A model generated the notes under the pieces. It was not told the DNA's origin. It saw nothing but the letters and a program-made list of their open reading frames with translations, and searched no databases. Position numbers and translations under genes: made by a program. Of a stretch of DNA of 23,187 nucleotides, positions 7,283 through 23,187 are shown one piece after another. The stretch lies in UHGV virus genome UHGV-0778869, one strand, 5' to 3'. The stretch is from a virus. Within the stretch, counting starts at the first letter, position 1. Every line of letters starts with the position of its first letter.

Positions 7283-7299
7283 TCACGCAAGGGGCGATT

Positions 7300-7841: not shown

Positions 7842-7887
7842 TTAGCCATCAGCAGGACGCTGGAAGCCAAACGGAACAGATTGGCAG

Positions 7888-8241: not shown

Positions 8242-8514
8242 ATGACAGTAGTCATTACATATCTGGCTGACGATAACGCCAGAAATCGCCGCAGAGCACG
8301 CAGACAGGCTCAACGTGAACAGGCAATGCAAGAGCAGCGACTGGCGCGAAAAATTGCGCTAAAGCTCTCTGGTTGCGTCAGAGCAGATAAAGCAGCATCA
8401 CTCGGAAGCCTTCGCTGCAAGAAGGCAGATGAATGCAGTGGAAGTATTTGCCTGCCAAACGTAGCCATTTACTCGGCAGGCTACCGGAAATCAAAACAAC
8501 TGACAGCCAGGTAA
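8242..8514 (+). CDS. N-like transcription antiterminator with arginine-rich motif (P22 gp24-like, 90 aa)
   Basis: GGAGG SD; ARM NARNRRRARRQAQREQA near the N-terminus; C-terminal ...YSAGYRKSKQLTAR resembles P22 gp24 as recalled. Confidence 0.8.
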   Translation: MTVVITYLADDNARNRRRARRQAQREQAMQEQRLARKIALKLSGCVRADKAASLGSLRCKKADECSGSICLPNVAIYSAGYRKSKQLTAR

Positions 8515-8517
8515 GTG

Positions 8518-8742
8518 ATGAATCAGACATACATTCCATCATGCTTGAGAAATCTGCCAAAGCAGAAAGCAAAGCCCCGCAAGCAAGCCATAAAGGACGC
8601 TAAGGCAGAGGTTATTGATCAAGCAATACAATTGCTCAGGGAGGAGTTAAGAAGTGGCAAGCTCGAAGGAATGATGATGCCCTATCAGCGCGGATATCTT
8701 TCGGCGATTAGTAAGCTGGAAGTATTGAAGAGTGAATTATGA
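8518..8742 (+). CDS. Hypothetical protein (74 aa)
   Basis: ATG 8518 after AGGTAAG; MNQTYIPSCLRNLPKQKAKPRKQ...; ATGA overlap with the next gene. No family recognised. Confidence 0.5.
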   Translation: MNQTYIPSCLRNLPKQKAKPRKQAIKDAKAEVIDQAIQLLREELRSGKLEGMMMPYQRGYLSAISKLEVLKSEL

Positions 8743-9431
8743 ACTATCTGGAATTTCCGGATGGTTCATTGTTTTGGCAGCAAACCACTTATTTGAGAGG
8801 AATTAATATGTCATCAATCCGCTTAACTACGAGAATGAAAGAGAAAATCGCTCGTAACGCTTTAATTAAGTCTGGGGTTTTCACTGAGCTTGAAGAAGTA
8901 ACAAAGTTAAAGAGCCAGCTTGCACTTGACGCCAGAGTTATTGCGTTTGGCGGTAAAAAGAAAACTGAGGAAGTGGATCAGTTATCATCCAAGTTAGTAG
9001 CTATAAGTGAAGAACTTGAAAAACTGGGATGTTCATTTTACTCATACGATGTTCGTTCTACTTCAATTTATCTGACTGTATCTGGCAGAAGGGTTGGATG
9101 GCTTTCATATGGGGAAGACGGCAACGGCGAAGATATATTGCTCCCTACTCCGACCAAAGATAAATGCATGTTTGACGCAGAACACGAAATAACAAAAAGG
9201 TTTGATGAAATCTGCGCATTGCAACAAAAACTTGAAGCCAAGAAAAAGGATATCGAATCAAATGTATGGGCTGCTTTGAACTCAGTCACAACAGTTAAGC
9301 GACTTATTGAAGTTTGGTCTGAAAGCAAAGAATTGCTACCAAAAGAAGCAGATAAAGCAAGTACAGCACTTCCTGCTTTACGGGTAGAAGATTTGAATAA
9401 GATGATTGGACTTCCTTCCGAGGCCGCATAG
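8739..9431 (+). CDS. Hypothetical protein (230 aa; alternative start 8808)
   Basis: ORF with coupled start; internal ATG 8808 has a GAGAGG SD; stop lies inside the terminator hairpin. No family recognised. Confidence 0.55.
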   Translation: MNYLEFPDGSLFWQQTTYLRGINMSSIRLTTRMKEKIARNALIKSGVFTELEEVTKLKSQLALDARVIAFGGKKKTEEVDQLSSKLVAISEELEKLGCSFYSYDVRSTSIYLTVSGRRVGWLSYGEDGNGEDILLPTPTKDKCMFDAEHEITKRFDEICALQQKLEAKKKDIESNVWAALNSVTTVKRLIEVWSESKELLPKEADKASTALPALRVEDLNKMIGLPSEAA

Positions 9432-9448
9432 TCGGCCTTTATTTTTGG
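9421..9448 (+). terminator. Intrinsic terminator
   Basis: Stem AGGCCG (9421-9426) / CGGCCT (9433-9438), loop CATAGT, then TTATTTTTGG. Confidence 0.7.
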
Positions 9449-9565
9449 CACTAACAACAGAATAAACACAGCACTGTGTATTCATTCCAACGAGTGAATA
9501 CACGGAGCAATGTCGCTCGTAACTAAACAGGAGCCGACTTGTTCTGATTATTGGAAATCTTCTTT

Positions 9566-9594
9566 GCCCTCCAGTGTGAGGGCAATTTTTTTTG
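9566..9594 (+). terminator. Intrinsic terminator immediately upstream of the next gene's RBS
   Basis: Stem GCCCTC / GAGGGC with loop CAGTGT, then AATTTTTTTTG; GGAGG SD follows at 9597. Confidence 0.7.
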
Positions 9595-9605
9595 ATGGAG
9601 GATAT

Positions 9606-10574
9606 ATGAGTGAAGTAACAGATTTAGTTGTTATTGAAAAAGCAAATGCAATGACTGTATTTCAGTCTGCCGACCAGATTGAAGAAATCCTTCAAAAGGT
9701 TGAACGTGAAGTTATGTCCTTTGTGCCTGATATCACAACGGCAAAGGGCAGAAAGGAGATCGCTTCTCTGGCGTATAAAGTTGCGCAGACGAAAACATAT
9801 CTCGATGGTCTTGGCAAAGACCTTGTTGCTGAACTGAAGGAAATTCCAAAGCTAATTGATGCCAACCGCAAGACAGTGCGTGATCGCCTTGATGAGCTGA
9901 AAGCCAAGGCGCGCCAGCCTCTTACTGATTATGAGGAGGAACAGGCACGGATTAAAGCCGAAGAAGAAGCTAAGGCAGCAGCTGAAGCTCTCGCAAAGCA
10001 AATTGAGTCTGACCATGAAATAGCGATTTTGATGGATCGCGAATTTGACCGCCAAAGAGAAGAGGCAAGACTCAAAGCGGAGCAGGAAAAGCGAGAGCAT
10101 GAAGAACGCTTAAAAAGAGAAGCTGAAGAGAAAGCCAGAGCAGAAGCCGAAGCAAAGGCAAAAGCCGAAATTGAAGCAGCAGCAAGGCGAGAAGCAGAAG
10201 CTAAGGCCGCAGCGGAACGTGCAGAGCGTGAACGTATTGAAGCCGAGCAACGAGCACAGCGCGAAGCAAAAGAGGCAGCAGAACGAGCTGAAAGAGAAAA
10301 GCAGGCGGCAATTGAAGCAGAACGCCGAAAAGCACAGGAGGAGGCTGAACGAATCCGGCGCGAGGCTGAAGCAAAAGAGCAAGCAAGAATAGCAGAAGAA
10401 AAAAGAATCAAGGACGAAGAAGAGCGTAGAGCAAAGGATAAAGCTCACCGGAAAGAAGTAAATAACAAAATACTTGCTGACCTTATCAAGGTTGGCGCAT
10501 CAGAAGATGTTGCTAAAAATATCATAACAGCCATCGTAAAAGGCGAAGTATTCGCAACAAAAATAACCTACTAA
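9606..10574 (+). CDS. Hypothetical protein (322 aa): N-terminal globular domain, long Glu/Ala/Lys/Arg-rich coiled-coil, short C-terminal domain
   Basis: ATG 9606 with GGAGG SD; the low-complexity centre (EAEAKAKAEIEAAARREAEAK...) generates several spurious antisense ORFs; sits upstream of the Sak4-like gene. Confidence 0.7.
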   Translation: MSEVTDLVVIEKANAMTVFQSADQIEEILQKVEREVMSFVPDITTAKGRKEIASLAYKVAQTKTYLDGLGKDLVAELKEIPKLIDANRKTVRDRLDELKAKARQPLTDYEEEQARIKAEEEAKAAAEALAKQIESDHEIAILMDREFDRQREEARLKAEQEKREHEERLKREAEEKARAEAEAKAKAEIEAAARREAEAKAAAERAERERIEAEQRAQREAKEAAERAEREKQAAIEAERRKAQEEAERIRREAEAKEQARIAEEKRIKDEEERRAKDKAHRKEVNNKILADLIKVGASEDVAKNIITAIVKGEVFATKITY

Positions 10575-10598
10575 TAAAACCAACATAAGGAACCACCC

Positions 10599-10745
10599 AT
10601 GATTTACGCAATCGCGGGAGGCGCTCGCATGGGTGCCTTCCAACTAAATGAATCTTTACTTGAACGAATCACCCGTAAATTACGTGACGGATGGAAACGA
10701 CTCATCGACGTACTTAATCAGCCAGGAGTTCCAAAAAATGGATAA
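10599..10745 (+). CDS. Hypothetical small protein (48 aa)
   Basis: ATG 10599 with AAGGA SD 7 nt upstream; MIYAIAGGARMGAFQLNESLLERITRKLRDGWKRLIDVLNQPGVPKNG. Below ORF-track cut-off; found by hand. Confidence 0.4.
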   Translation: MIYAIAGGARMGAFQLNESLLERITRKLRDGWKRLIDVLNQPGVPKNG

Positions 10746-10851
10746 AACACTTATGGCTATCCAGACTAAATTCACTATCGCCGCTTTTATTGGCGATGAA
10801 AAGATGTTTCGTGAGGCCGTCGAAGCCTACAGAAAATGGAGGTCAAAATGA
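10738..10851 (+). CDS. Hypothetical small protein (37 aa)
   Basis: ATG 10738 overlaps the previous ORF end; MDKTLMAIQTKFTIAAFIGDEKMFREAVEAYRKWRSK; the upstream extension of this frame (10648) overlaps the 48-aa ORF. Confidence 0.4.
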   Translation: MDKTLMAIQTKFTIAAFIGDEKMFREAVEAYRKWRSK

Positions 10852-11036
10852 TTCCGGTAGAACTGGCGAAAACTCCAGAGTTAAGTCGATTAAAAAGAGA
10901 ATATCACATTGCTGAGGCTCGTTACTGGCGTAAAGCGGGAGATAAATCAAAGAAACAACTTTGCTTATGGCAGGCACAAAGAGAGCGCATGAATGAGCGT
11001 GAGTTTCTTTCCTCCCCATCCGAATTACCATTCTGA
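10848..11036 (+). CDS. Hypothetical small protein (62 aa)
   Basis: ATG 10848 with GGAGG SD and ATGA overlap with the previous ORF; MIPVELAKTPELSRLKREYHIAEARYWRKAGDKSKKQL... Confidence 0.5.
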   Translation: MIPVELAKTPELSRLKREYHIAEARYWRKAGDKSKKQLCLWQAQRERMNEREFLSSPSELPF

Positions 11037-11044
11037 GGCAAATT

Positions 11045-11746
11045 ATGGGAACTGCGACATTAATACTCGGTGAATCTGGCACCGGAAAATCAACCAGCAT
11101 GAGAAATATCAATCCAGAGGAAGCAATACTTATAAAACCAATAGGCAAGCAGCTTCCATTTAAATCAAAAGACTGGCTGGCATGGGATGCCAGAGCAAAA
11201 AAAGGAACCGTAGTTACCACTGACAAATGGGACGTAATAGTTGCCGTAATTAAGCGTGCTCACGAATACGGGAAAAGAATCGTTATTGTTGATGACTTCC
11301 AGTATGTGATGAGCAATGAGTTTATGCGCCGCTCAGAAGAAAAATCGTTTGATAAATTCACTGAGATAGGCCGCCACGCATGGGAGGTGATTAAGGCTGC
11401 ACAGGATGCACCTGATGACCTGAGAGTCTATTTTCTTGCGCACACCGAAGAAACCCCTATGGGGCGTGTGAAAATGAAGACTATCGGCAAAATGCTGGAC
11501 GAGAAAATCACTGTCGAAGGCATGTTTACTATAGTTCTTCGCACCCTTACCCGCGATGACCAGTTCTTTTTCACCACGAAAACAACGGTGCAGACACTGT
11601 TAAATCCCCAATGGGAATGTTTGATTCTAATGAGATTGATAACGATCTCTCTTTCGTCGATGCCACTGTTTGTGATTACTACGGCATCAATAATGTTCAT
11701 CAAATTAAGGAAAACGCCGCATGAGCAACGTGATTTTTACTTATAA
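11045..11746 (+). CDS. Sak4-like RecA-fold ATPase (AAA_24-type), probably frameshifted near 11560-11590; intact-frame end would be 11724
   Basis: Walker A GESGTGKST, Walker B IVIVDDF. After ...DQFFFTTK the in-frame tail looks non-protein-like, while the -1 frame reads NNGADTVKSPMGMFDSNEIDNDLSFVDATVCDYYGINNVHQIKENAA and ends in a stop that overlaps the next ATG. Confidence 0.7.
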   Translation: MGTATLILGESGTGKSTSMRNINPEEAILIKPIGKQLPFKSKDWLAWDARAKKGTVVTTDKWDVIVAVIKRAHEYGKRIVIVDDFQYVMSNEFMRRSEEKSFDKFTEIGRHAWEVIKAAQDAPDDLRVYFLAHTEETPMGRVKMKTIGKMLDEKITVEGMFTIVLRTLTRDDQFFFTTKTTVQTLLNPQWECLILMRLITISLSSMPLFVITTASIMFIKLRKTPHEQRDFYL

Positions 11747-12308
11747 CGAAGAAGCAGCACTGACCGCAGGGCAAGGTGGTTTTATTAACGAAACTGGTGC
11801 TCATATCATTACCATTACTGAAGCAGAACTAAAGCAATCAGAAAAAGGAGCCAAATTTATTGAGTTTTCTGGCGAATCTGACGACGGACGTAAAATCCAA
11901 TATCTTAGCGTCTGTGTTCAGAAAAATGACGGAACGGAAAACAAATTTGGCGCAAATGTCGTTCACGCCATGATGGGGTGTGCCGGGATTGGACAATTAA
12001 CGCAACATATGGTTTCCGCCAGTAAATTTGTTGCTCCTGAGTTTCATGGAAAGAAAATCGGGTTAGTGCTCCAGAAAGTATTAACCACAAACAAAAAGAC
12101 TGGCGCAGACAGCTACCAGATGGAAATACGCATCCCGTTTATTGCACAAACAGGTCAAACCCTTAAAGAAAAGGCGGAAGGCAAGCAACCAGAAACTATC
12201 GCCAACATGGTTGCCAGCCTCAAAGATAAAGACAATCGCTCTAAAAACGTAAGCCAGAATCATGCAGATGATTATGGTTACAGCCAGAACGATTACCCTC
12301 CTTTCTGA
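11721..12308 (+). CDS. Putative ssDNA-binding partner of the Sak4-like ATPase (195 aa)
   Basis: Immediately downstream of the ATPase; acidic C-terminal tail ending ...DDYGYSQNDYPPF, reminiscent of SSB tips (E. coli SSB ends DDDIPF). OB fold not verifiable by eye. Confidence 0.5.
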   Translation: MSNVIFTYNEEAALTAGQGGFINETGAHIITITEAELKQSEKGAKFIEFSGESDDGRKIQYLSVCVQKNDGTENKFGANVVHAMMGCAGIGQLTQHMVSASKFVAPEFHGKKIGLVLQKVLTTNKKTGADSYQMEIRIPFIAQTGQTLKEKAEGKQPETIANMVASLKDKDNRSKNVSQNHADDYGYSQNDYPPF

Positions 12309-12331
12309 TTATTGAAAATAAGGCTCCCATT

Positions 12332-12628
12332 ATGCCAGCGCCTCTGTATGGTGCGGATGACCCGCGCAATTGCTCCGGTAGCTCCAAGGCGGAGGTGCTG
12401 GAAAATATCAAAAACAATTTCGACGCGTTTCTTGCTCTGACACCAGAAACAAAAGCAGAACGGATGTACCGACGCGATATACAACTCGCGCTAAAACAGG
12501 AGAAGGACCGAACAAACGAAACAGCAATGAGACCGTTGCGAAAAGCGACAATAGACAAATTCCCTGAATATATCGACCCGCGCCTGCGTAATTACCGATC
12601 ACGCTATGGCGCTATCAGTAATGACTGA
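12332..12628 (+). CDS. Hypothetical protein (98 aa)
   Basis: ORF with weak AAGG SD; [34 protein letters not shown]...; no family recognised. Confidence 0.45.
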
Positions 12629-12638
12629 GGAATTTACC

Positions 12639-12803
12639 ATGAGAGGACTTGCATACAATCCCGGCATTCTTCAGGCAGAAATGATTATTCGCCAACGCGT
12701 AAAGCCAATGCCATCGAGAGAGGAATTACTTAAGAGAAATAGTTTCGGTTCTGTTAATGACAACAAATATCTGAATGCGATGTGGCGGAGTGGGAAGAAA
12801 TGA
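12639..12803 (+). CDS. Hypothetical small protein (54 aa)
   Basis: ATG 12639 with GAGGA SD 8 nt upstream; [34 protein letters not shown]... Confidence 0.45.
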
Positions 12804-13231
12804 AACAAATGTCACTAATTGAGATGGATGGATTTCTGAAAGGTAAATGCATCCCACGAGATTTAAAGGTTAACGAAACAAACGCTGAATATCTGGTGCG
12901 TAAGTTCGGTGAACTTGAATCAAAACTAGAAACGGCGTTGCGGGAGTGTCGTTCTGCTGGAATCACGATTGATAACCTTGAGGCTAAATGCGCGAAGATG
13001 GCTGCTGAAAATACCTCACTTAAGCAATCTGAGAAGGAATTTAATGACTTTTGTCGTGAGGAGTTTAGCGAATGGGAAGATGATGTTACTGAAACCCCAG
13101 CCACCGATGCTTTTCTGGCTGAAGTACGGGCGCAGGGGGTAGAGATGTTTGCTGACCATCTGTTGTGCCCAGACCTTGATGACACTATCCGTGACTTTGC
13201 TTCCCAGCTTCGCAAAGGAGGCAACCAATGA
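12800..13231 (+). CDS. Hypothetical acidic protein (143 aa)
   Basis: ATG 12800 overlapping the previous stop (ATGA), GGAG SD; predicted helical/coiled-coil. Confidence 0.55.
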
Positions 13232-13845
13232 GCGAGATTGACTATCAGGCATTGCGTGCTAAGGCAGAAAAAGCAACGTGTGGCGAGTGGTCGCTCGAAT
13301 ATGGAGAGGGCCGATTTGATGGTGATGATGCGCTAATTCATCGCGAGGCTGCTGGATATCTTCCCATTTGCAGAATTGAAGGAGCGCATCCTGAAAGCGG
13401 TTTCGATGAAGATTTCCAAATGGAACAGCAGGCCAATGCTGAATTCATCGCCGCAGCCAATCCGGCTACCGTCTTGGCGCTGCTTGGCGAGCTGGAAGCA
13501 GCAGAGAACAACCTTATTGATAGTGAATGCCATGTTGCTGAACTGGAAGAAGCGCTACGCGATAAGCAGGCGTTACTTGAAGCATCAGAAAAGCGCATAG
13601 CAGAACTGGAAGCCGAACTCGTAAGCCAAACTTACAAGTTGAACGAGCTATCGGGCAACTCTCCGGTAACTCCGGATGGTTGGGTTGTAGTGCCGAAGGA
13701 GTTAACACCGGAAATGATGAGAGCCGTTCAGATTAGAAGTGAGCTTGGAGGGTATGCCACTTCCAATCTATCTGGTGCATACAATATGTTTTCTGAGTTC
13801 TGGAATGTTGCTGTCTCAGCTGCGCCTAAGGTGGATGATTTATGA
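13228..13845 (+). CDS. Ead/Ea22-like protein (205 aa)
   Basis: Strong AAAGGAGG SD; N-terminus [22 protein letters not shown]... and central coiled coil resemble the Ead/Ea22-like family of lambdoid prophages as recalled. Confidence 0.55.
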   Translation: MSEIDYQALRAKAEKATCGEWSLEYGEGRFDGDDALIHREAAGYLPICRIEGAHPESGFDEDFQMEQQANAEFIAAANPATVLALLGELEAAENNLIDSECHVAELEEALRDKQALLEASEKRIAELEAELVSQTYKLNELSGNSPVTPDGWVVVPKELTPEMMRAVQIRSELGGYATSNLSGAYNMFSEFWNVAVSAAPKVDDL

Positions 13846-13991
13846 ATCTATATCGCTGCCCATTCTGTGGTTCCACTGTGCTTAACATCGGATACTCATT
13901 CAGTATCAGAGGGAAAATGCGCTATGTGTCATGCAAATGTGGTGCCCAAGGACCAGAAAAACGAACTAGATCTGAAGCGATTTCTTCATGA
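13842..13991 (+). CDS. Small zinc-ribbon protein, Lar-like (restriction alleviation family) candidate (49 aa)
   Basis: MNLYRCPFCGSTVLNIGYSFSIRGKMRYVSCKCGAQGPEKRTRSEAISS; CPFCG...CKCG motif; ATGA overlap with the upstream gene. Found by hand. Confidence 0.45.
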   Translation: MNLYRCPFCGSTVLNIGYSFSIRGKMRYVSCKCGAQGPEKRTRSEAISS

Positions 13992-14000
13992 AATAGTCGA

Positions 14001-14138
14001 ATGAAAGTATGGGTTTATGATCCAGAAACAATATTAAACGTTGAAGAGCGCAGGAGAACAGAAGTCTATATTCATAACCTTAATGAAGATGGATTTACAC
14101 CAGTGCTCGTAAAGGCTACTCCGCAGGAGGTGAAGTGA
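14001..14138 (+). CDS. Hypothetical small protein (45 aa), weakly supported
   Basis: ATG 14001, no clear SD; MKVWVYDPETILNVEERRRTEVYIHNLNEDGFTPVLVKATPQEVK. Confidence 0.25.
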   Translation: MKVWVYDPETILNVEERRRTEVYIHNLNEDGFTPVLVKATPQEVK

Positions 14139-14416
14139 TGGACTCCTTCGCGAAATATACGATTATTGACTGGATAGCATTCCTTCAGGTTTTGCTCATC
14201 TGGTTTTATATGGCTTACAGGAGTGGACAGTGGATTGTCAGTGTAGCCTGTAGCAGGGGATGGCGTTGGTGGAACCGAAAGAATAAAAAAGCACTGGCAT
14301 TGGATTCGTTTTACGAAGCATTCAATCTTAACAGTCTTCAGCCTGGTTCTGTCATTGTAGTCACCACTCAAAGCGGCATGACCATTCAGATTCATAAACC
14401 AAAAGAGGAAAAATGA
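14138..14416 (+). CDS. Small membrane protein (92 aa) with one N-terminal transmembrane helix
   Basis: ATG 14138 with AGGAGG SD; hydrophobic IIDWIAFLQVLLIWFYMAY then basic stretch RGWRWWNRKNKK. Confidence 0.55.
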   Translation: MDSFAKYTIIDWIAFLQVLLIWFYMAYRSGQWIVSVACSRGWRWWNRKNKKALALDSFYEAFNLNSLQPGSVIVVTTQSGMTIQIHKPKEEK

Positions 14417-14502
14417 TGTGGCCTATATGTGTTAATTGCGGACGGATGTGCCTATCTGGATGGTGCCGAAAGTGCGACAAATGCACGAAGAAAAGACAAT
14501 AA
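14413..14502 (+). CDS. Cys-rich mini-protein (29 aa), zinc-ribbon-like
   Basis: AGAGGA SD; MMWPICVNCGRMCLSGWCRKCDKCTKKRQ; start overlaps the upstream stop. Confidence 0.3.
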   Translation: MMWPICVNCGRMCLSGWCRKCDKCTKKRQ

Positions 14503-14536
14503 CAATCCTCGCACTCGCGGGGATTTCTTTTATCTG

Positions 14537-14563
14537 AACTCGCTAGGGCGAGTTTTGTTTTAT
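14537..14563 (+). terminator. Intrinsic terminator
   Basis: Stem AACTCGC / GCGAGTT with loop TAGG, then TTGTTTTAT; the next gene's SD follows. Confidence 0.7.
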
Positions 14564-14574
14564 GGAGACAAGAA

Positions 14575-14919
14575 ATGTCAGATTTGGCTATGAAGGTTTT
14601 GAAATGGCAATCGACTGGCGATGTTGGCATTAGTAGCGCAACTCTTGCCTCAATCGCATGTGGACTGGAAAAGAATATCTATGGTCATCACTTCGGCGCT
14701 CCCCATGACGCAGCAGACTTCCGGCGATGCGTTGCACTTGTTGAGCAGATTCCAGAAATCAGAGATTCATTCGACAAGGTTGCAAAGCGCGTTCCGGCAT
14801 TCAAAGGCATCCTCACCGAATGGGATTCCCTCGTTGCTCTGTTGAAGTCTGAAATGAAGATACACCGAAACAAAGCACCAGAGACTTACAGAAGAATTAG
14901 CGAGTTACGCAAGGACTAA
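14575..14919 (+). CDS. Hypothetical protein (114 aa)
   Basis: ATG 14575 with GGAGA SD; MSDLAMKVLKWQSTGDVGISSATLASIACGLEKNIYGHHFGAPHDAADFRR...; no family recognised. Confidence 0.55.
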   Translation: MSDLAMKVLKWQSTGDVGISSATLASIACGLEKNIYGHHFGAPHDAADFRRCVALVEQIPEIRDSFDKVAKRVPAFKGILTEWDSLVALLKSEMKIHRNKAPETYRRISELRKD

Positions 14920-14977
14920 CCACAGCCTAACACTCGATGAGGCCAGTTCATTTCTCAAGATATCCAGACATACCATC

Positions 14978-15001
14978 GCCGCATCAATGCGGCTTTTTCT
15001 T
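14978..15001 (+). terminator. Intrinsic terminator upstream of xis
   Basis: Stem GCCGCA / TGCGGC with loop TCAA, then TTTTTCTT. Confidence 0.6.
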
Positions 15002-15013
15002 GCGTGTAATTGC
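15000..15013 (+). promoter_or_regulatory. Candidate pI CII-binding site TTGC-N6-TTGC (TTGCGTGTAATTGC)
   Basis: Same motif as at pRE; sits just 5' of the xis ATG so that a dependent transcript would start inside xis, as for lambda pI. Confidence 0.6.
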
Positions 15014-15025
15014 GGAGACTTTGCG

Positions 15026-15244
15026 ATGTACTTGACACTTCAGGAGTGGAACGCTCGCCAGCGACGCCCAAGAAGCCTTGAAACAGTTCGTCGATGGGTG
15101 CGCGAGTGCAGGATATTCCCTCCTCCGGTTAAGGATGGAAGAGAGTATCTGTTCCACGAATCAGCGGTAAAGGTTGACTTAAATCGACCAGTAACAGGTA
15201 GCCTTTTGAAGAGGATCAGAAATGGGAAGAAGGCGAAGTCATGA
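15026..15244 (+). CDS. xis: Excisionase Xis (72 aa)
   Basis: MYLTLQEWNARQRRPRSLETVRRWVRECRIFPPPVKDGREYLFHESAVKVDLNRPVTGSLLKRIRNGKKAKS matches lambda Xis as recalled; overlaps int by 23 nt. Confidence 0.95.
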   Translation: MYLTLQEWNARQRRPRSLETVRRWVRECRIFPPPVKDGREYLFHESAVKVDLNRPVTGSLLKRIRNGKKAKS

Positions 15245-16292
15245 GCGCCGGGATTTACCCCCTAACCTTTATATAAGAAACAATGGATATTACTGCTACA
15301 GGGACCCAAGGACGGGTAAAGAGTTTGGATTAGGCAGAGACAGGAGGATAGCAATCACTGAAGCTATACAGGCCAACATTGAGTTATTTTCAGGACACAA
15401 ACACAAGCCTCTGACAGCGAGAATCAACAGTGATAATTCTGTTACGTTACATTCATGGCTTGATCGCTACGAAAAAATACTCGCCAGCAGAGGAATCAAG
15501 CAGAAGACACTCATAAATTACATGAGCAAAATTAAAGCAATAAGGAGGGGTCTGCCTGATGCTCCACTTGAAGACATCACCACAAAAGAAATTGCGGCAA
15601 TGCTCAATGGATATATAGACGATGGCAAGGCGGCGTCAGCCAAGTTAATCAGATCAACACTGAGCGATGCATTCCGAGAGGCAATAGCTGAAGGCCATAT
15701 AACAACAAACCCGGTCGCTGCCACTCGCGCAGCAAAATCAGAGGTAAGGAGATCAAGGCTTACGGCTGACGAATACCTGAAAATTTATCAAGCAGCAGAA
15801 TCATCACCATGTTGGCTCAGACTTGCAATGGAACTGGCTGTTGTTACCGGGCAGCGAGTTGGTGATTTATGCGAAATGAAGTGGTCTGATATCGTAGATG
15901 GATATCTTTATGTCGAGCAAAGCAAAACAGGCGTAAAAATTGCCATCCCAACAGCATTGCATGTTGATGCCCTCGGGATATCAATGAAGGAAACACTTGA
16001 TAAATGCAAAGAGATTCTTGGCGGAGAAACCATAATTGCATCTACTCGTCGTGAACCGCTTTCATCCGGCACAGTATCAAGGTATTTTATGCGCGCACGA
16101 AAAGCATCAGGTCTTTCCTTCGAAGGGGATCCGCCTACCTTTCACGAGTTGCGCAGTTTGTCTGCAAGACTCTATGAGAAGCAGATAAGCGATAAGTTTG
16201 CTCAACATCTTCTCGGGCATAAGTCGGACACCATGGCATCACAGTATCGTGATGACAGAGGCAGGGAGTGGGACAAAATTGAAATCAAATAA
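15222..16292 (+). CDS. int: Tyrosine integrase, lambda Int type (356 aa)
   Basis: MGRRRSHERRDLPPNLYIRNNGYYCYRDPRTGKEFGLGRDRRIAITEA... ...HELRSLSARLYEKQ...LLGHKSDTMASQYRDD: essentially lambda Int as recalled, with the R-H-R-Y catalytic region. Confidence 0.95.
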   Translation: MGRRRSHERRDLPPNLYIRNNGYYCYRDPRTGKEFGLGRDRRIAITEAIQANIELFSGHKHKPLTARINSDNSVTLHSWLDRYEKILASRGIKQKTLINYMSKIKAIRRGLPDAPLEDITTKEIAAMLNGYIDDGKAASAKLIRSTLSDAFREAIAEGHITTNPVAATRAAKSEVRRSRLTADEYLKIYQAAESSPCWLRLAMELAVVTGQRVGDLCEMKWSDIVDGYLYVEQSKTGVKIAIPTALHVDALGISMKETLDKCKEILGGETIIASTRREPLSSGTVSRYFMRARKASGLSFEGDPPTFHELRSLSARLYEKQISDKFAQHLLGHKSDTMASQYRDDRGREWDKIEIK

Positions 16293-16540
16293 TGATTTTA
16301 TTTTGACTGATAGTGACCTGTTCGTTGCAACAAATTGATAAGCAATGCTTTTTTATAATGCCAACTTAGTATAAAAAAGCTGAACGTGAAACATTAAAAA
16401 TCATTAATATCAATGCATTACAATATCTTTAGTCTAAAAAATAGACTACATAATGCGACAAAACACAACATATCCAGTCACTATGAATCAACCACTTAGA
16501 TGGTATTAGTGACCTGTAACAGAGCATTAGCGCAAGGTGA
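16293..16540. other. attP: P' arm, 15-bp core (16366-16380, reverse complement of GCTTTTTTATACTAA) and P arm
   Basis: P' arm and core match lambda attP as recalled; the P arm (16476-16525) is similar to lambda's but diverged. Confidence 0.85.
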
Positions 16541-16543
16541 TTT

Positions 16544-16584
16544 TTGTCTTCTTGCGCTAATTTTTTGTCAACATACTGGGTTAT
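16544..16584 (+). terminator. sib / tI-like hairpin terminator downstream of attP
   Basis: Stem TTAGCGCAAG / CTTGCGCTAA (10 bp), 14-nt loop, then TTTTTTG; matches the lambda sib/tI region as recalled. Confidence 0.75.
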
Positions 16585-16781
16585 CTGAATTTACAACCAT
16601 GCTCAGTATCTCGATAAGCGCAGAGAAATGATGCAGTGGTGGGCGGACTGGCTTGATGAAAAGGTGGAGTGATCCACCTTTACCATTATCGAAGAGAACA
16701 AAGCCTTGCAAGCCAATGCAAAGCTTTGTGTGTCCCGTTTTTGTCTCAACATAGCCTTAGATATAGACAACGCAATCACTT

Positions 16782-18848
16782 TTATTGGAATGAAATACTG
16801 CACTCCATTTCAGTTGGTGACCCTGTATTGCTGTACGTTACAATAGTCCATGAGGTTGCAGATACCTTGTTTACGACCATGTATCTCCCAGTTCCTGGTG
16901 ACGTAAATGTATATCCTGCAGTCGACATGTCTGTCGGAAATGTTATCACCCAAACACCAGGTGATGTTTTGGATGCTAAGCATCCAACTGCTGATAACAG
17001 AACTCCTGAGCTATTTATATTTACAACACATGGTGAGTTTATAATCTTAACAACACCTGTATCAAGTATGTATGTATCAAACACTTTACCTATTCTGTTG
17101 CCATTTAGGTATGTAACTGCTGTTGCTGACAATCCAGCCCTGTTCCTTAAAACAGTTGAAACTCCAAGCCCTGAGCAATTAGTTACTTGCTGATCTGATA
17201 CCATTCCTGAAGTTGAACTAAATTGCTCCATAATTGCATCAACGGTATTTGACCCATTAAAGCAGTTGAATGAAACGTTCTCTAACTTATTCCTTCTCAC
17301 TGACTTTCCTGAGTCAGATCTAACGTTGCAGATTCTGTTGTACTGCCCTGGAGTGTTTATTTGTACAAATCCACCTCTTATCTTGTTGTCAAGACAGTCT
17401 GTTAATGATTCGCTATGGTCGTATAAATCATACGCTCTTTTAAAATCACCATTATTATTCATGAAGATTAAAACATCTTCTATGAGATTGTTACTACAAC
17501 CTTGAATAGCTATCACGCTATCATTACCATTAAAAGCACCATTTGCGATACTGGTAAATTTACCGCCAACAATCTTGCAGTTAGTGCATCCGCGTGAGAA
17601 CTTAATGTTATTGTTACCACCTATAGCGCCATCGACATTCCCAAGAACTGATGAATTATGAATTCCTTCACAGTTTATGAACTGAAAATCAGTAGTAGGA
17701 AATCCAATACCGTCAGCAGAAGTAGCATGATAATTAACAAGCAGCCCGTTTTCTGCGTATCCTCCCTGAACAAACCCACCCTTAACTCCAAGTATCTCCA
17801 TGTTACCACCGGCCTTAGATTGTCCTATAAACCTTGGCATGGTTATCTCAGGGTCAATAGCGCCGATAACGACAAAGTTACCATGGTTAGCTCCCTTATG
17901 ACCGGTTCCATCAAAGGTGCATCTAATGGCCCTTATCTTTGATCGTCTAGTTGAATCAGCAGATCCGTAAGAAGTATTTCCCATTCTTAATGGCGTCACA
18001 TCTGAATCACCATTGAAATACAGATCTCTTACTTCTATATTATTCCCTGTTAATTCTATTGCACCAAAGCTCTTATTAAACAATGATCCTGTCAAAGTTA
18101 TTCTAGCCTGATTGATGGCTAATATTTTTTTATTGTCAAGGCTTGATATTACGTTATTTGTTATTTTTACATTTATATCTATGTAAATCTCATCAAAATA
18201 TATTAACAACATACTGATTAGTGATGTTATATCACTGTCAGGTGATGTCCAGTCGCTAATTTTTGTGCTTCTAGACCGTGTTCTTTTTTCAAGATAACAA
18301 GTTACCCCGCCAATCACTGCGGAGTTTTGACTCAATGACGATATTGTTCCGCTTGCTGGAGGTGATATATAAAATAATCCAAATTCAGTGTGAATATCTG
18401 TTGTACCAACAGGAATAATATCTCCAACCTTTGCCGTAGCTCTTACATCATTAGGGAATACAACCCCTGGCAATATTTCGTCACGCATTTCATTGACGTA
18501 TACTCTTAACTGGTCAGGGTCATACTTCAACACATTAGGAAAATAGAACTGCTGCGCACCATATGCATCATAAACAGCCATCGAATGACCTTGCACGGTA
18601 ACGAATTTGGCAATCTGTCCGTTATATACCGGGTAACCAGCAGCGTTAATGATGATTGGTTGCGAAACAGGAACGTGAGAACCGTCTTCGTTCTCCACAT
18701 AAACCTGAATCTGGTTTTCAGGATTTACCGGATCCGTGTCAATTTTACCGATATAAATTTTGCCATTGGCTACGGCTTTAAAAGAACGAGCCATAGTGAA
18801 GAGTTGCGAAGGCATGCTTACCACAACATTTGCGGTGATATCTGACAT
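16782..18848 (-). CDS. Tailspike protein: P22-type N-terminal head-binding domain fused to a distinct beta-helix receptor-binding domain (about 688 aa)
   Basis: ATG 18848 with GGAG SD; N-terminus [43 protein letters not shown]...NVLKYDPDQ parallels P22 gp9 residues 1-110; the rest is Gly/Asn-rich repeats typical of right-handed beta-helix depolymerases and unlike P22 gp9. Confidence 0.85.
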
Positions 18849-18969
18849 TTCATTGCTCCAGACGAATGATATGATGCAACCATGATGTGATTGCATACCG
18901 AAATGGTACTATTGAGTATTTATCCAGTAGGTTACGATGCCATTCCACCCAACTGGTGAGGCATCAAGG

Positions 18970-19236
18970 ATGTACAGCAAATACGACGAGGCGCAGTTTC
19001 ACTTGAGACTTCCGCATGAACTCCACGCGAAAATTAAGCAGCGTGCGAAGATGAATAACAGGTCGCTGAACTCAGAGATAATTGCAGCGATTGAAGAATC
19101 ATTGGCTAAACAAAGCTCTGCATCTGTTTACATTGACGATGCAGAGCGTATGGCAGAACAACAATCTGAGATGGTTAAGAAAATTGTCTTTGATACGCTT
19201 AAGACCATGTATAGCAATAATAAAAAGGAAACATAG
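18970..19236 (+). CDS. mnt: Mnt-like ribbon-helix-helix repressor (about 88 aa)
   Basis: AQFHLRLPHELHAKIKQRAKMNNRSLNSEIIAAIEESL ... DAERMAEQQSEMVKKIVFDTLK parallels P22 Mnt as recalled; start uncertain (ATG 18970 or 18937). Confidence 0.75.
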   Translation: MYSKYDEAQFHLRLPHELHAKIKQRAKMNNRSLNSEIIAAIEESLAKQSSASVYIDDAERMAEQQSEMVKKIVFDTLKTMYSNNKKET

Positions 19237-19306
19237 AAATCTAGTTTCCGGCTAAAATGGCATTGCCTTCATGATATCCTGTGAAAAACTAAGGAGAGTT
19301 AACCAT

Positions 19307-19792
19307 ATGAAAAAGTCACTGTTAATTATCCCGCTTCTGCTGGTTGGATGCGCAAAAGTAAGTGACTATCAAGCAAGTTGCGAACAACGCTATCAAAAGC
19401 TTAGCGATATGGCTAATTGCCTTGATGCCAGTGTGAAGAACGACTCACGCATGGCATCAGCACCAACACCTAAGCTGTATGTCCTTGCTGCAAAGATGCT
19501 CGGGCAAAGTGTCGATGAAGGCAAGATAAGTGACGCACAGGCAAGACTTGAGCTTCAGAATCTTTATGTTCAATTACAAAGCCAAGAACAAGCCCAACAA
19601 ATAGCACAAAGCCAAGCATTCCAGCAGGCTTTATTGAATTATCAGGCTGTAAACACAATGCAAGCGATCGAGCAAAAAGCGAGACAGCCTGTTATAACTC
19701 AACCCTATCCAACACGAGTTGACACTTACACAAACTGCAATTCAGGATTTGGAAACACGGTAACATGCAACAGTAGCAGTAGCATCAGATAA
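19307..19792 (+). CDS. Lipoprotein (161 aa) with Gln-rich mature domain
   Basis: AAGGAGAG SD; signal peptide MKKSLLIIPLLLVGC with lipobox LVGC; located between mnt and the ejection-protein gene. Confidence 0.7.
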   Translation: MKKSLLIIPLLLVGCAKVSDYQASCEQRYQKLSDMANCLDASVKNDSRMASAPTPKLYVLAAKMLGQSVDEGKISDAQARLELQNLYVQLQSQEQAQQIAQSQAFQQALLNYQAVNTMQAIEQKARQPVITQPYPTRVDTYTNCNSGFGNTVTCNSSSSIR

Positions 19793-19813
19793 CAATCAGC
19801 AAAGGTATCGCCT

Positions 19814-19891
19814 ATGCAGAGGGATACGATAAACCTCGCGTTCTACATATTTGGTTTTTGCACGTTCCTGGTGTTTGAAAGGCTATTCTGA
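19814..19891 (+). CDS. Candidate hydrophobic mini-peptide (25 aa), weakly supported
   Basis: MQRDTINLAFYIFGFCTFLVFERLF; weak SD; 3' end overlaps the convergent ejection-protein gene. Confidence 0.2.
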   Translation: MQRDTINLAFYIFGFCTFLVFERLF

Positions 19892-21880
19892 CAACGAATC
19901 AGACTTCGCACCCTGCGTCAGTGCATTAATCGCTTTTTGCGCTTGCTGCATGGCTTTCTCAAACGCTGTCGATCCGCGTTGTGTGTTTGCCATTCGTAGC
20001 ATTGCATTTCTGAATGGCTCACTCTCATAGGCGCGAGTAAGAAGTCCGTAGCTTACCGCTGCGCCAGTTGTCGCCGGGTTCATTGCTGTCCCATACCCGA
20101 TAATGAACGGGATGGTTTGCTGCCCTGTTGGTGTTGTTACTGCCGCTTTTGCAGCCTGCTGCGTGGATTGCAGGTAGTTTTTCAATCCTTTCAGATAAGC
20201 AGCGTCCTGCCCCTTAAATGTGATGCCAGTCTGGTTTTGCAGGATGTTAAGCTGTCGAAGGAACTGATCAGGGGAACCCCCTGATTTCTCCATCGCCTTT
20301 CCAATGATGCCATTGCGCATTTGCGCCCTGCCAACACGACCAACTGAGTTATACAGCGTCTTAATTTCCGATTTGTTCTTGCTGAATAGCATGTTGTTGA
20401 CAACTTCCGGCGTCAGATCGCCTTTCATGAGAACATTCTTCAGCCTGGTATTCTTTAGTTTCGCCGCTTCGTTAGCGTAGACGGCATTGGCCTGCTGATA
20501 TTTACGGAGAGTATCGTTGCCAAGATTCTGACCAATGGCACCATTGATATCGTCTGTCATCGCCTTGTAAACGCGCTGAATGGCAGCATCGGAACGGTTT
20601 GGTAACACTGGTCGCTCCCCCTTCACGTCCATTCTGAACTGGCTGCGCAGATCGCTTAATTGCTTCAAATCCAGATTTACCGGACCATCAGGACTAGCAT
20701 TGCGAACAAGCTCATCACGATAGGACTGAAGTTTTGAAATAGTCTCGTTATCAGCAACCTTACCAAGCTTCTGCAGGTTAGATATTTCTGTATCAATCTG
20801 CTGAATTGCTCGCGCAGGCTGAATGTTTACTCCAGCCATAGCATTCTGAACCTGCTCCAGTCGATTACCGGCGGCACGACGAATTCCTGATGTTTTCGCT
20901 TTAAGGCTGTCAATAACAACCGCTGGATCATACTCACCGAATTTATCGGCAAATCTCTGCACCAACTGGCTTCTCGCTTCCTGTTGCGTTGCTCTCATTC
21001 CGCTTGTGCCAGCCAGGGGGATATTTTCTGCTGTAGTCTGCGCCATTTTCCCGACGCGGGAAGTAGGCTGTAACAGGTCTGTGGTGTGCAGAGGAACTCC
21101 TTCACGCTCTGCAAACCTGATAGCCTGTTGAGCTTCTGGTGCTATCGAACCACGAACACCACGATAAGCAGCACCTAATCCACGTCCGGCAGCGTTAATA
21201 GCACCGCCAGCCAGCACACCAACGCCTAAATCGGTGGCGAGTGCTTCCGCATCATCTTTCGCACTGTTTGCAGCAAGTGATCCAACTGCGTTTTCTGCTA
21301 GAAGACGAGTTGCAACCTGAGCAATTCGACCAGCAAGTGTTGGTGCCTGTGTTGCCGCTCTCTCAACGCCAGCAGGAGTGAGGTAAGGCAATGCTTCAGC
21401 AAATACCCTTCCCTCTGTCGTTTGTGGAGTCAGCGCGCCTTGCTGAAGGCCAAAGTCCTGCTCTAATCCCTGCGTTGTTACTCGTGGCGCTGGTTGATAT
21501 GTCCCATCGCCAATTCCGAGTTTACCGCCAGCCCAAGCCGCCGCGCTTGTTACAGCATCGGCAACTGATGCAGGTATGTTTGCCACGTTCACGCCAGCCT
21601 GCACCAGTCCGCGACCAGTTTCTTTCACGGCTTCGCCAAGATCAGACATAAATCCACTTTGCTGTGGTTGTTGCTGTGCTACTGGTTGCTGTGTCTCCAC
21701 TGGCTGCACAGATGGCAATGGATAGGCAGCATAGAAAGCTTGCTTAGCCTGCTCTGCATTTTCTCCGGCTTGCGGGGCAACGACTTCTTTGAAGTATTGC
21801 TCCTGAGCCTGCGCTTTTTGTTCTGGTGCTAACGCCTGATACTGTGGAGAGGCGATAACATCTTTCCATGCTTTAGCCAT
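19883..21880 (-). CDS. Ejection / DNA-transfer protein (P22 gp16 position, 665 aa)
   Basis: Large Ala/Gln/Gly-rich protein upstream of the immI-like region; start overlaps the upstream gene stop (TAATG). Confidence 0.7.
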   Translation of the reverse strand: MAKAWKDVIASPQYQALAPEQKAQAQEQYFKEVVAPQAGENAEQAKQAFYAAYPLPSVQPVETQQPVAQQQPQQSGFMSDLGEAVKETGRGLVQAGVNVANIPASVADAVTSAAAWAGGKLGIGDGTYQPAPRVTTQGLEQDFGLQQGALTPQTTEGRVFAEALPYLTPAGVERAATQAPTLAGRIAQVATRLLAENAVGSLAANSAKDDAEALATDLGVGVLAGGAINAAGRGLGAAYRGVRGSIAPEAQQAIRFAEREGVPLHTTDLLQPTSRVGKMAQTTAENIPLAGTSGMRATQQEARSQLVQRFADKFGEYDPAVVIDSLKAKTSGIRRAAGNRLEQVQNAMAGVNIQPARAIQQIDTEISNLQKLGKVADNETISKLQSYRDELVRNASPDGPVNLDLKQLSDLRSQFRMDVKGERPVLPNRSDAAIQRVYKAMTDDINGAIGQNLGNDTLRKYQQANAVYANEAAKLKNTRLKNVLMKGDLTPEVVNNMLFSKNKSEIKTLYNSVGRVGRAQMRNGIIGKAMEKSGGSPDQFLRQLNILQNQTGITFKGQDAAYLKGLKNYLQSTQQAAKAAVTTPTGQQTIPFIIGYGTAMNPATTGAAVSYGLLTRAYESEPFRNAMLRMANTQRGSTAFEKAMQQAQKAINALTQGAKSDSLSE

Positions 21881-23187
21881 TAATCACCCCATAGTGAAGA
21901 AAAGTTACTGCCAGTAGTAGATTGTTGCCCTGGCATATTCTGCACCGGCTCCTGATAATCAAACTGTTTTTTAACAGTGCTCAACTTGCTTTCAAGCTGA
22001 TTTCTAATCTTTCCGATAGAGTCACGAAAAGCCTTTTCACTCATTTTGGGGCTTAGGGCACCAACCGCATCGGATAATTTTTTACCCTCAGCATCTGAAA
22101 GAGCCCCCATACCCTTAAGGGACTGCACCATAGGAAGGAATGTTTGAGCTTTAAAGGTGTCGAGCCTTGCTTCAAAGTTAGCTGCATCAGAGCCAGGAAC
22201 TGTCGGAAACGCTGAGCGAATTCCTACTGCTTTTGAAAGGCCTGGGCTTTGCTCTATCTCGTTGAGAGAATCAAGCGCTGTGCTGAACGTATCAACTGCA
22301 CCCTGAGCGGCGGCCTGCCTGTCAGCGCGGGCTATGTCAGCCTTTTGCCGAACATCTGCCTGTTTCTGTTTTAGCTCTTCAAGCTTTAACTGATTGCTTT
22401 CTCTGGCTATCTGTCTGTCCAGAGCCTTTTCTTGTAATTCTGCTCTTTGTATTTCTCGGGAAAGAGCAGCATTCTGTGCGCTGATGTTCTGTCCACGTAT
22501 CTGGATGTCCTGACCTCGAGCTGTTAGTGCTTCTCCTGCCTGATTGCTGCGGATTGTCTCTGCCAGTCTGCCTCGGTCAATCTCACGACCAGCCATCTTG
22601 TCCTGAACATTGAAGTAATCAATCGGACCAAGAGCAGCCATTCCAAGGTGATCAACAAACTCACCAAATCCTGAAGGATTCTGCTGATACATCTGAGCAA
22701 CGTTGTTAGGGTCAACACCGACGCGATTCAGTTCCTTGGCGTTGTTTTGCAGCCATGATTGCATTGCTTCTGGAGATGATGATGCAAGGCGAGCGCCAGC
22801 CGCTAAGGTGCCGATAGAATTGCGCTGGTCTTCATCAATGAACCCCATGCCTTTACGAATAGATTCAATCTGGTCTGGATATTGAGTAGCCAACTGACGC
22901 AAAGCTCCGCGATCACCAGACGCATAACCCCTCCGTAGCGTAGTTCCGCCATGCGTAGCGGTGCTGAACGAACGGAAGTGCTCCCGACCGAGCGAGATAC
23001 CCACGAGGAAGCAAGGCGGAGGGCTTTGCCCACACCGCACATAAACGCTTGACTCTGCGCAGCAGTGCCAAACACCGCTTTTTGACCGAGCGACCGAGGG
23101 TGCACGGAGAGAGTGAAGCTGAGCGGAGGATGGCGGATGCGTAGCGTAGGAGCGTGGCTGCGGTGGTCTGAGCATAGCGAAGTCCAC
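21880..23187 (-). CDS. Ejection protein (P22 gp20 position), N-terminus beyond the window edge
   Basis: Open frame to the window edge; residues encoded from about 22900 downward are protein-like (coiled coil, Ala/Gln-rich); the segment 22900-23187 is compositionally anomalous. Confidence 0.6.
   Translation of the reverse strand: MDFAMLRPPQPRSYATHPPSSAQLHSLRAPSVARSKSGVWHCCAESSVYVRCGQSPPPCFLVGISLGREHFRSFSTATHGGTTLRRGYASGDRGALRQLATQYPDQIESIRKGMGFIDEDQRNSIGTLAAGARLASSSPEAMQSWLQNNAKELNRVGVDPNNVAQMYQQNPSGFGEFVDHLGMAALGPIDYFNVQDKMAGREIDRGRLAETIRSNQAGEALTARGQDIQIRGQNISAQNAALSREIQRAELQEKALDRQIARESNQLKLEELKQKQADVRQKADIARADRQAAAQGAVDTFSTALDSLNEIEQSPGLSKAVGIRSAFPTVPGSDAANFEARLDTFKAQTFLPMVQSLKGMGALSDAEGKKLSDAVGALSPKMSEKAFRDSIGKIRNQLESKLSTVKKQFDYQEPVQNMPGQQSTTGSNFSSLWGD

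What the first reader, a model, noticed from the sequence alone, without database searches (positions are those of the whole stretch)
16782..18848. Mosaic tailspike: conserved head-binding N-terminus with a different receptor-binding body
The first 110 residues are near-colinear with P22 gp9, but the remainder differs from P22's endorhamnosidase while keeping beta-helix hallmarks. This is the expected signature of horizontal swapping of the receptor-specificity module, implying a different O-antigen or capsule target.
Basis: partly seen in the sequence, partly recalled or inferred. Interest (0 to 1): 0.45.

Follow-up and report, generated by a model that had tools for sequence, protein, structure and literature searches.

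The report
Mosaic P22-like phage tailspike gene
This is an ordinary but clear case of a P22-type phage tailspike whose conserved virion-attachment end is fused to a rare sugar-cutting receptor module, and that module's only studied relative targets the E. coli O8 surface antigen.

Summary
Window 16782-18848 (minus strand) encodes a 688-aa tailspike. Residues 1-113 are a P22-type head-binding domain (Pfam PF09008, E 1.8e-67), 76% identical to P22 gp9 and 92% to Sf6 gp14. Residues 114-688 match no solved tailspike by sequence. They model as a right-handed beta-helix with C-terminal beta domains.

[quoted passage not shown] That protein was shown experimentally to act on E. coli O8 O-antigen. Relatives of the body also sit behind T7-type and epsilon15-like anchors.

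The family is rare. It has 13 clusters among 5.8 billion proteins and 8 representatives among 1.84 billion. It is absent from 5,426 complete E. coli genomes.

DNA comparisons place the recombination joint at gene nt ~295-352. One prophage shares the upstream region and head-binding part, then diverges completely at nt 349. Others share the body and 193 nt downstream at about 99.8%, while their head-binding parts differ by 6-8.5%.

Near-identical full-length proteins already exist in E. coli draft genomes, named generically and uncharacterised. Verdict: a new member of a known kind. O8 specificity is inferred, not shown.

The parts
16782..18848 (-). Tailspike CDS, 688 aa plus stop
   Evidence: ORF and translation. 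GGAG at 18856-18859. Exact protein present in NCBI and Logan E. coli assemblies, cluster of 46 members.
18510..18848 (-). Head-binding (virion-attachment) domain, aa 1-113
   Evidence: PF09008 over profile positions 1-113, E 1.8e-67. 92% identical to Sf6 gp14 and 76% to P22 gp9. DNA 88-96% identical to more than 1,100 E. coli genome records and 28 phage records, but only over gene nt 1-~345.
18497..18554 (-). Recombination joint (gene nt ~295-352, aa ~99-118, around YDPDQ|LRV)
   Evidence: L010 homology stops at gene nt 348. Near-identity to L003/L004 starts after nt 294. Homology to AV101 TSP1 starts at L114.
18249..18509 (-). Neck helix (aa 111-125) and small N-proximal beta domain (aa ~129-196)
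   Evidence: AF2 secondary structure. 39-47% identical to AV101 TSP1 here. Weak similarity to the same region of other P22-type tailspikes with different bodies: P0116, and phrog_20129 over aa 1-194.
17124..18248 (-). Right-handed parallel beta-helix, aa ~201-575; putative polysaccharide-binding and cleaving domain
16782..17123 (-). C-terminal beta domains, aa 576-688
   Evidence: All-beta in the AF2 model, pLDDT ~77-90. 71% identical to AV101 TSP1.
16589..16781 (.). 3' flank that travels with the body. It includes a 28-codon remnant of an argW-type integrase C-terminus at 16589-16672 (+)
   Evidence: Only 2 differences from L003/L004 over this flank, then homology ends. The remnant translates to IYNHAQYLDKRREMMQWWADWLDEKVE*, identical to the C-terminus of the L003 integrase.

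Best explanation
The gene encodes the tailspike of a P22-like (Lederbergvirus-type) temperate podovirus of E. coli.

Shown by homology: aa 1-113 form the head-binding domain, which in P22 and Sf6 docks the trimeric spike onto the tail hub.

Shown by homology and modelling: aa 114-688 form a receptor-binding module made of a neck helix, a small beta domain, a right-handed beta-helix and C-terminal beta domains. This module belongs to a small family whose only characterised member, AV101 TSP1, clears the O-antigen of E. coli O8 strains and blocks AV101 infection of an O8 host.

Inferred: the spike binds and hydrolyses an E. coli O-antigen, most likely the O8 polymannan or a close variant. This would let the virion work down through the LPS layer to the outer membrane. 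Because O8 is a neutral mannan, the chemistry would be glycoside hydrolysis rather than lyase action.

Shown by DNA comparison: the gene is a recombinant, with its joint at the end of the head-binding coding region. The body plus 193 nt of 3' flank circulates almost unchanged among P22-like prophages whose head-binding segments and flanks differ.
For: - **Head-binding domain:**
- **Genomic setting:** the gene sits in a P22/Sf6-like late region, after the ejection-protein genes and an Arc/Mnt-like gene, and convergent with int.
- **Body homology:** 66% identical and colinear to the AV101 TSP1 receptor-binding domain, rising to 74-87% over aa 291-575.
- **AV101 TSP1 experiments:** translucent zones only on O8 strains, and complete block of infection of an O8 host (PMC10791037). 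The same paper reports that the TSP1 receptor-binding domain resembles E. coli prophage proteins.
- **Fold:** beta-helix.
- **Joint mapping:**
- **Purifying selection:** 23 synonymous versus 6 non-synonymous codon changes against L003.
- **Composition break:** body GC 38% and GC3 30%, versus 43% in the head-binding part and 46% in the rest of the window.
- **Hosts are E. coli:** the L003 chromosomal flank is 100% identical to E. coli chromosomes, and cluster members are named E. coli.
Against: - Receptor specificity is extrapolated from a 66%-identical homologue. No serotype could be obtained for any lysogen.
- The family also includes TSP1 of Kuttervirus phages propagated on Salmonella (59% identical), so it may span more than one specificity.
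- AV101 TSP1 failed on two other O8 strains, ECOR7 and ECOR72, which shows that fine specificity matters.
- No catalytic residues are known for any family member.
- The structure is a monomer model built from only 14 sequences, and its head-binding part is poorly modelled (pLDDT below 50).
Confidence: 0.8

Rival explanations
1. Same mosaic tailspike, but the body targets a different O-antigen or another surface glycan (a non-O8 serogroup, capsule or colanic acid). The AV101 similarity would then reflect only a shared scaffold.
For: - Identity to AV101 TSP1 is only 39-47% in the N-proximal third of the body.
- The window protein is roughly equidistant (62-68%) from all Ackermannviridae members.
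- Salmonella-propagated Kuttervirus members exist.
- AV101 TSP1 itself does not act on all O8 strains.
Against: - The central and distal beta-helix, where tailspike binding grooves normally lie, is 74-87% identical to the O8-active protein, with no indels.
- From established knowledge, P22, Det7 and 9NA tailspikes keep the same O-antigen specificity at about 35-50% identity.
Confidence: 0.35
2. The gene is a decaying prophage remnant and the tailspike is non-functional.
For: - The window carries a truncated integrase remnant right next to the gene.
- A near-identical contig (L012) has its gp16-like gene called as two pieces.
Against: - The ORF is intact at 688 aa, with a Shine-Dalgarno sequence.
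- There are 46 cluster members, nearly all full length.
- Substitutions are mostly synonymous.
- The neighbouring ejection-protein genes (19883-23187) are unbroken in the window, and L012 shows the coat and other virion genes upstream on a near-identical contig.
- attP is intact, and the contig is assembled in the excised arrangement, which suggests an active phage.
Confidence: 0.04
3. The apparent mosaic is an assembly chimera that joins two unrelated tailspike genes.
For: Several supporting sequences come from short-read draft or Logan assemblies.
Against: The same junction and full-length gene recur in independent assemblies and collections: NCBI GCA_001292545.1 and GCA_054854235.1, Logan SRR7613607 and SRR6107140, and IMG/VR UViG 2579778871. 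One of them lies inside a 501-kb chromosomal contig.
Confidence: 0.01

Closest known systems
Tailspikes of P22-like phages (P22 gp9, Sf6 gp14, HK620 gp9, CUS-3 endosialidase tailspike)
   Same: The N-terminal head-binding domain is shared: 76% identical to P22, 92% to Sf6, and DNA 88-95% identical to HK620, CUS-3 and Sf6 over nt 1-~345. The gene position is the same, after the ejection proteins and immI and convergent with int. The overall plan is the same: head-binding domain, linker, beta-helix, C-terminal domain.
   Different: The body has no detectable sequence similarity to the endorhamnosidase (P22, Sf6), endo-N-acetylglucosaminidase (HK620) or endosialidase (CUS-3) bodies. Structural matches are about 10% identical. 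There is no seroconversion gene between the tailspike and att, unlike P22 (gtrABC; from established knowledge) and Sf6 (oac; from established knowledge).
TSP1 of Agtrevirus AV101 (WJJ54142.1), the O8-specific tailspike of an Ackermannviridae myovirus
   Same: The whole receptor-binding module is colinear: window aa 114-688 against AV101 aa 159-733, 66% identity, 81% positives, 2 gaps. The junction with the anchor falls at the same point.
   Different: The anchor differs: a P22 head-binding domain here, versus the Ackermannviridae TSP1/Gp66 N-terminal domain (PF18668) there. DNA identity is only about 68%, so the transfer is not recent. AV101 is virulent with four spikes. This phage is temperate and has one tailspike gene at the P22 gene 9 position. 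Activity has not been tested here.
Det7 TSP3 / P22 gp9 and CBA120 TSP1 / Salmonella Minnesota prophage pairs (documented sharing of receptor-binding domains between Ackermannviridae and temperate phages)
   Same: The same phenomenon: one beta-helix module behind different virion anchors in a myovirus and a temperate phage (PMC11721090).
   Different: A different module family and a different presumed glycan. This pairing (P22-type anchor with an AV101-TSP1-type body) is mentioned only generically in the AV101 paper, as 'similar to E. coli prophages'.
[quoted passage not shown]
   Same: A virion-borne enzyme that depolymerises the E. coli O8 polymannan, which is the activity inferred here (review PMC5380687).
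   Different: The review lists no sequence for the Omega8 enzyme (accession 'ND') and gives a size of about 35 kDa, so no sequence comparison is possible. Any link is speculative.

Membership tests
P22-type tailspike (Pfam PF09008 head-binding family) | N-terminal head-binding domain of about 110 aa | tested here: met
   PF09008 matched over the full profile, E 1.8e-67 and 225 bits against a cut-off of 24. PDB hits to Sf6 and P22 N-terminal domains, E 1e-64 to 4e-45.
P22-type tailspike (Pfam PF09008 head-binding family) | Gene located at the end of the late operon of a P22-like genome, after the ejection-protein genes and immI | tested here: met
   gp16-like and gp20-like genes lie at 19883-23187 and an Arc/Mnt-like gene at 18937-19236. 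The window is 49% covered at 96% identity by Sf6. The coat, tail-hub and ejection-protein genes lie upstream in L012.
P22-type tailspike (Pfam PF09008 head-binding family) | Trimeric beta-helix receptor-binding body | tested here: inconclusive
   The beta-helix fold is supported. Only a monomer was modelled, so trimer formation was not tested.
P22 gp9 / Sf6 gp14 endorhamnosidase, HK620 endo-N-acetylglucosaminidase and CUS-3 endosialidase bodies | Sequence homology of the catalytic body | tested here: not met
   No PDB sequence hit beyond aa ~120 at E up to 1. DNA matches to these phages stop at nt ~345. Foldseek identity is 9-12% over the bodies of Sf6 and HK620.
AV101 TSP1-type receptor-binding module | Full-length colinear homology of the module | tested here: met
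   BLASTP gives 382/576 identical with 2 gaps, reaching the C-terminus. tblastn covers 100%. A 13-member family alignment has 55 invariant columns.
AV101 TSP1-type receptor-binding module | Depolymerising activity on E. coli O8 O-antigen | not testable with these tools
   Shown only for AV101 TSP1. No host serotype could be retrieved for the lysogens.
Ackermannviridae TSP1 (PF18668 anchor) | TSP1/Gp66 N-terminal anchor domain | tested here: not met
   The Pfam scan finds only PF09008. PF18668 is present in relatives P0002-P0009 and P0013, but not in P0001, the 99%-identical cluster representative, which carries only PF09008.

The most novel reading that the evidence does not exclude
The body could be the first sequence-defined temperate-podovirus version of an O8-polymannan endomannosidase, the activity described biochemically for coliphage Omega8 in the 1970s. 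It has no sequence relationship to any solved or PHROG-catalogued depolymerase, so this small family could represent a new beta-helix glycoside-hydrolase family. It would move between phages as a cassette bounded by two conserved homology arms: the head-binding coding region on the 5' side and the integrase 3' end on the 3' side.
Probability: 0.3. Interest if true: 0.45.

Novelty: new member of a known kind. Interest (0 to 1): 0.3.

Why it matters
Module exchange in tailspikes is textbook biology, so the finding is not surprising in kind. It still has practical value:

- It gives a precisely mapped natural joint (YDPDQ|LR) for grafting receptor-binding modules onto P22-type virions.
- It links an experimentally typed Ackermannviridae spike (O8) to a temperate E. 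coli phage lineage.
- It identifies a rare beta-helix depolymerase family, with 13 clusters among 5.8 billion proteins, that occurs behind at least four different virion anchors.

If O8 activity is confirmed, the protein could serve as an O8 typing or decoating reagent.

Tried and rejected
**Searches for the body that found nothing**
- PDB sequence search found only the N-terminal match.
- Pfam found only PF09008.
- PHROGs matched only the head-binding domain.
- Megablast and 'distant' blastn of the body against 5,426 complete E. coli genomes found nothing.

**Fold searches**

**Host O-serotype**
- The L003 chromosomal flank is 100% identical to E. coli EC7518, which is ST101. That paper gives no serotype, and flank identity does not fix the O-type, so I abandoned this route.
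- Table S3 of the AV101 paper, which lists the prophage hits of TSP1, is not held.

**Other scans**
- The Rfam scan of the window gave no hits.
- The promoter and terminator scan around the gene was not above shuffled expectation, so I drew nothing from it.

**Readings considered and rejected**
- An assembly chimera, because the junction recurs in five independent sources.
- A decayed pseudogene, because the ORF is intact and substitutions are mostly synonymous.
- The longer 704-aa ORF starting at 18896, because all homologues start at the MS/TDITANV methionine and a GGAG precedes it.

Full report
**1. The observation**

Window 16782-18848 on the minus strand is a 688-codon ORF. A GGAG lies at 18856-18859, 7 nt before the ATG. 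An in-frame ATG at 18896 would add 16 codons, but every homologue is 688 aa and starts at M(S/T)DITANV.

Residues 1-113 cover the whole Pfam Head_binding profile (PF09008, E 1.8e-67). They align without gaps to the solved N-terminal domains of Sf6 gp14 (92% identical) and P22 gp9 (76%).

Beyond residue ~115 nothing in the PDB matches by sequence. 26 PHROG tailspike families match only the first ~120 residues, one of them to residue 194. This shows how many different bodies share this anchor.

An AlphaFold2 model has pLDDT 70-93 in the body. The N-terminal domain is poorly modelled because the alignment was shallow there. The model shows:
- a helix at aa 111-125;
- a small beta domain at aa ~129-196;
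- a capping helix at aa 208-217;
- a long right-handed parallel beta-helix to aa ~575;
- C-terminal beta domains to aa 688.

**2. What the body is**

tblastn of aa 117-688 against 50,697 phage records finds seven records. The best is a tailspike of Escherichia phage AV101 (Agtrevirus, Ackermannviridae), at 66% identity over 100% of the query. Next come Kuttervirus sal1 and SeF3a (59%) and CBA6 (56%).

The AV101 gene is WJJ54142.1. It is the spike next to vriC, and the authors call it TSP1. BLASTP aligns window aa 114-688 with AV101 aa 159-733: 382/576 identical, 81% positives and two gaps, running to the last residue. The AV101 authors place the anchor at aa 1-157, so the two proteins switch from anchor to shared module at the same point.

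Identity varies along the body. It is 39-47% in the neck and first third, 74-87% through aa 291-575 and 71% in the C-terminal domains.

Purified AV101 TSP1 produced translucent zones only on O8 E. coli and completely blocked AV101 infection of an O8 host. It did not act on two other O8 strains (PMC10791037). The authors also noted, without detail available to me, that the TSP1 receptor-binding domain resembles proteins of E. coli prophages.

**3. How rare and how widely shared the module is**

A word-indexed search of 5.8 billion proteins with the body alone returns 13 clusters. An exhaustive HMMER scan of 1.84 billion cluster representatives returns 8. No complete E. coli genome out of 5,426 has it, even at distant blastn sensitivity.

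The module nevertheless sits behind at least four recognisable anchors:
- the P22 head-binding domain (this window, L003, L004, L008, L012, L013);
- the Ackermannviridae TSP1 anchor PF18668 (P0002-P0009, P0013);
- a T7-type tail-fibre N-terminus, PF03906, in a T7-like phage contig (P0011, L006, 46%);
- an epsilon15-like prophage anchor, followed by an acyltransferase gene (P0012, L005; also L009 and Citrobacter braakii L011).

A fifth, unclassified context is P0010 in L007.

**4. The recombination joint**

Three comparisons triangulate the joint.

(a) E. coli prophage L010 shares the Mnt-like gene, the intergenic region and the tailspike up to gene nt 348 at 97%. After that it is unrelated. 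It has a 674-aa spike, followed by an acyltransferase and an argW-type integrase.

(b) Prophages L003 and L004 are integrated at argW in chromosome that is 100% E. coli. L008 is an IMG/VR UViG. All three are unrelated to the window upstream of position -14. Against L003/L004, 25 differences fall within gene nt 4-294 (8.5%), one at nt 352, three between nt 353 and 2067, and two in the 193 nt downstream. Homology then stops. L008 shows 20 differences in nt 4-219 and three in the rest of the gene.

(c) L013 is colinear with the window from the gp16-like gene to 193 nt past the stop. It too has 18 differences in nt 81-319 against 6 in the remaining 1,748 nt.

The body therefore spread recently and almost unchanged among P22-like prophages. 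The head-binding coding region carries older polymorphism and serves as the 5' homology arm. The joint lies at gene nt ~295-352 (window 18497-18554), around the sequence YDPDQ|LRV.

Base composition agrees with this. The body has 38% GC and 30% GC3, against 43% in the head-binding part and 46% in the rest of the window. Against L003, 23 codon changes are synonymous and 6 are not, as expected for a functional gene.

**5. Setting**

About half of the window is 96% identical to Sf6 and IME10. The gene follows the gp20-like and gp16-like ejection-protein genes, an Arc/Mnt-like gene and a lipoprotein-like ORF of unknown function. It converges on a lambda-type int/xis pair, with the lambda attP core at 16366-16380.

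The 3' flank shared with the other prophages contains a 28-codon remnant of an argW-type integrase C-terminus at 16589-16672. The window phage therefore descends from an L013-like argW integrator whose int-att module was replaced by a lambda-type one.

The exact protein occurs in NCBI assembly GCA_001292545.1. Its contig CYGL01000178.1 is 99.94% identical to window 6783-22927. The 90% cluster has 46 members, several with WP_ accessions, named only 'phage head-binding domain-containing protein' or 'bifunctional tail protein'.

**6. Mechanism**

By homology with P22 and Sf6 (established structures), trimers attach through aa 1-113 to the tail hub.

By homology with AV101 TSP1 and from the beta-helix fold, the body is inferred to bind and cleave an O-antigen. 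O8 polymannan is the most likely target. I put this at about 0.5 for O8 itself and about 0.85 for an E. coli O-antigen in general. Because O8 has no uronic acids, hydrolysis is expected rather than beta-elimination.

Invariant acidic residues across the 13-member family (D206, D224, E265, E351, E366) are candidate catalytic residues. This is inference only.

**7. Comparison and novelty**

Exchange of receptor-binding modules between P22-like phages and Ackermannviridae is documented, for example Det7 TSP3 with P22 and CBA120 TSP1 with a Salmonella prophage (PMC11721090). Homologous beta-helix modules on variable anchors have also been described across BASEL phages (PMC11990801).

This case is a new, uncharacterised member of that known kind. 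It is a P22-type tailspike by its anchor and genomic position. It is not a member of the P22, Sf6, HK620 or CUS-3 catalytic families. Its body belongs to the AV101-TSP1 module family.

A virion endo-mannosidase acting on O8 was described for coliphage Omega8 in 1976, with no sequence on record (PMC5380687). Any connection to that enzyme is speculative.

**8. Verdict**

The finding is ordinary in kind but cleanly resolved. The O8 assignment remains an inference, testable by serotyping the lysogens and by a spot assay. Interest 0.3.

Noticed in passing
window 16589-16672 (+): A 28-codon remnant of an argW-type (Sf6/HK620-like) integrase C-terminus, identical in amino acids to the end of the L003 integrase. 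It lies between the lambda attP region and the tailspike stop. This is evidence that a lambda-type int-att module replaced the original integrase.
   Followed up: partly
window 14987-16380: Lambda-type xis (14987-15244) and int (15222-16292), plus the intact lambda attP core TTAGTATAAAAAAGC at 16366-16380, next to a P22-like late region. attP is uninterrupted, so the window shows the excised or virion arrangement. The same arrangement occurs in an NCBI draft E. coli contig (L012).
   Followed up: partly
window 16293-16781: There is no O-antigen modification (seroconversion) gene between the tailspike and att. Related prophages L010, L005 and L009 carry an acyltransferase directly after their tailspike.
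   Followed up: no
window 18529-18848 vs L003, L004, L008, L013: The head-binding coding segment is 5.6-8.5% diverged between prophages whose tailspike bodies differ by only 0.2-0.35%. Even the otherwise colinear L013 shows a divergent patch at gene nt 81-319.
   Followed up: yes
window 18937-19792 (+): A reduced immI-like region: an Arc/Mnt-like ORF (18937-19236) and a lipoprotein-like ORF with an LVGC lipobox (19271-19792, phrog_6067, function unknown). There is no antirepressor gene, whereas L003 and L004 carry an ant gene here.
   Followed up: no
L012 6965-8963 vs window 19883-21880: The gp16-like ejection-protein gene is called as two ORFs (362 + 318 aa) in the near-identical NCBI contig, but is an intact 665-aa ORF in the window. 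This is probably a frameshift or a sequencing error in that draft.
   Followed up: no
window 18099-18248 (gene nt 601-750): A marked AT-rich dip (26% GC) at the start of the beta-helix coding region, the lowest value in the gene.
   Followed up: no
L006 4663-6771; L005 8001-10310; L011 5001-6242: The same receptor-binding module occurs behind a T7-type tail-fibre N-terminus in a T7-like phage contig, in an epsilon15-like E. coli prophage, and in Citrobacter braakii ATCC 51113.
   Followed up: partly
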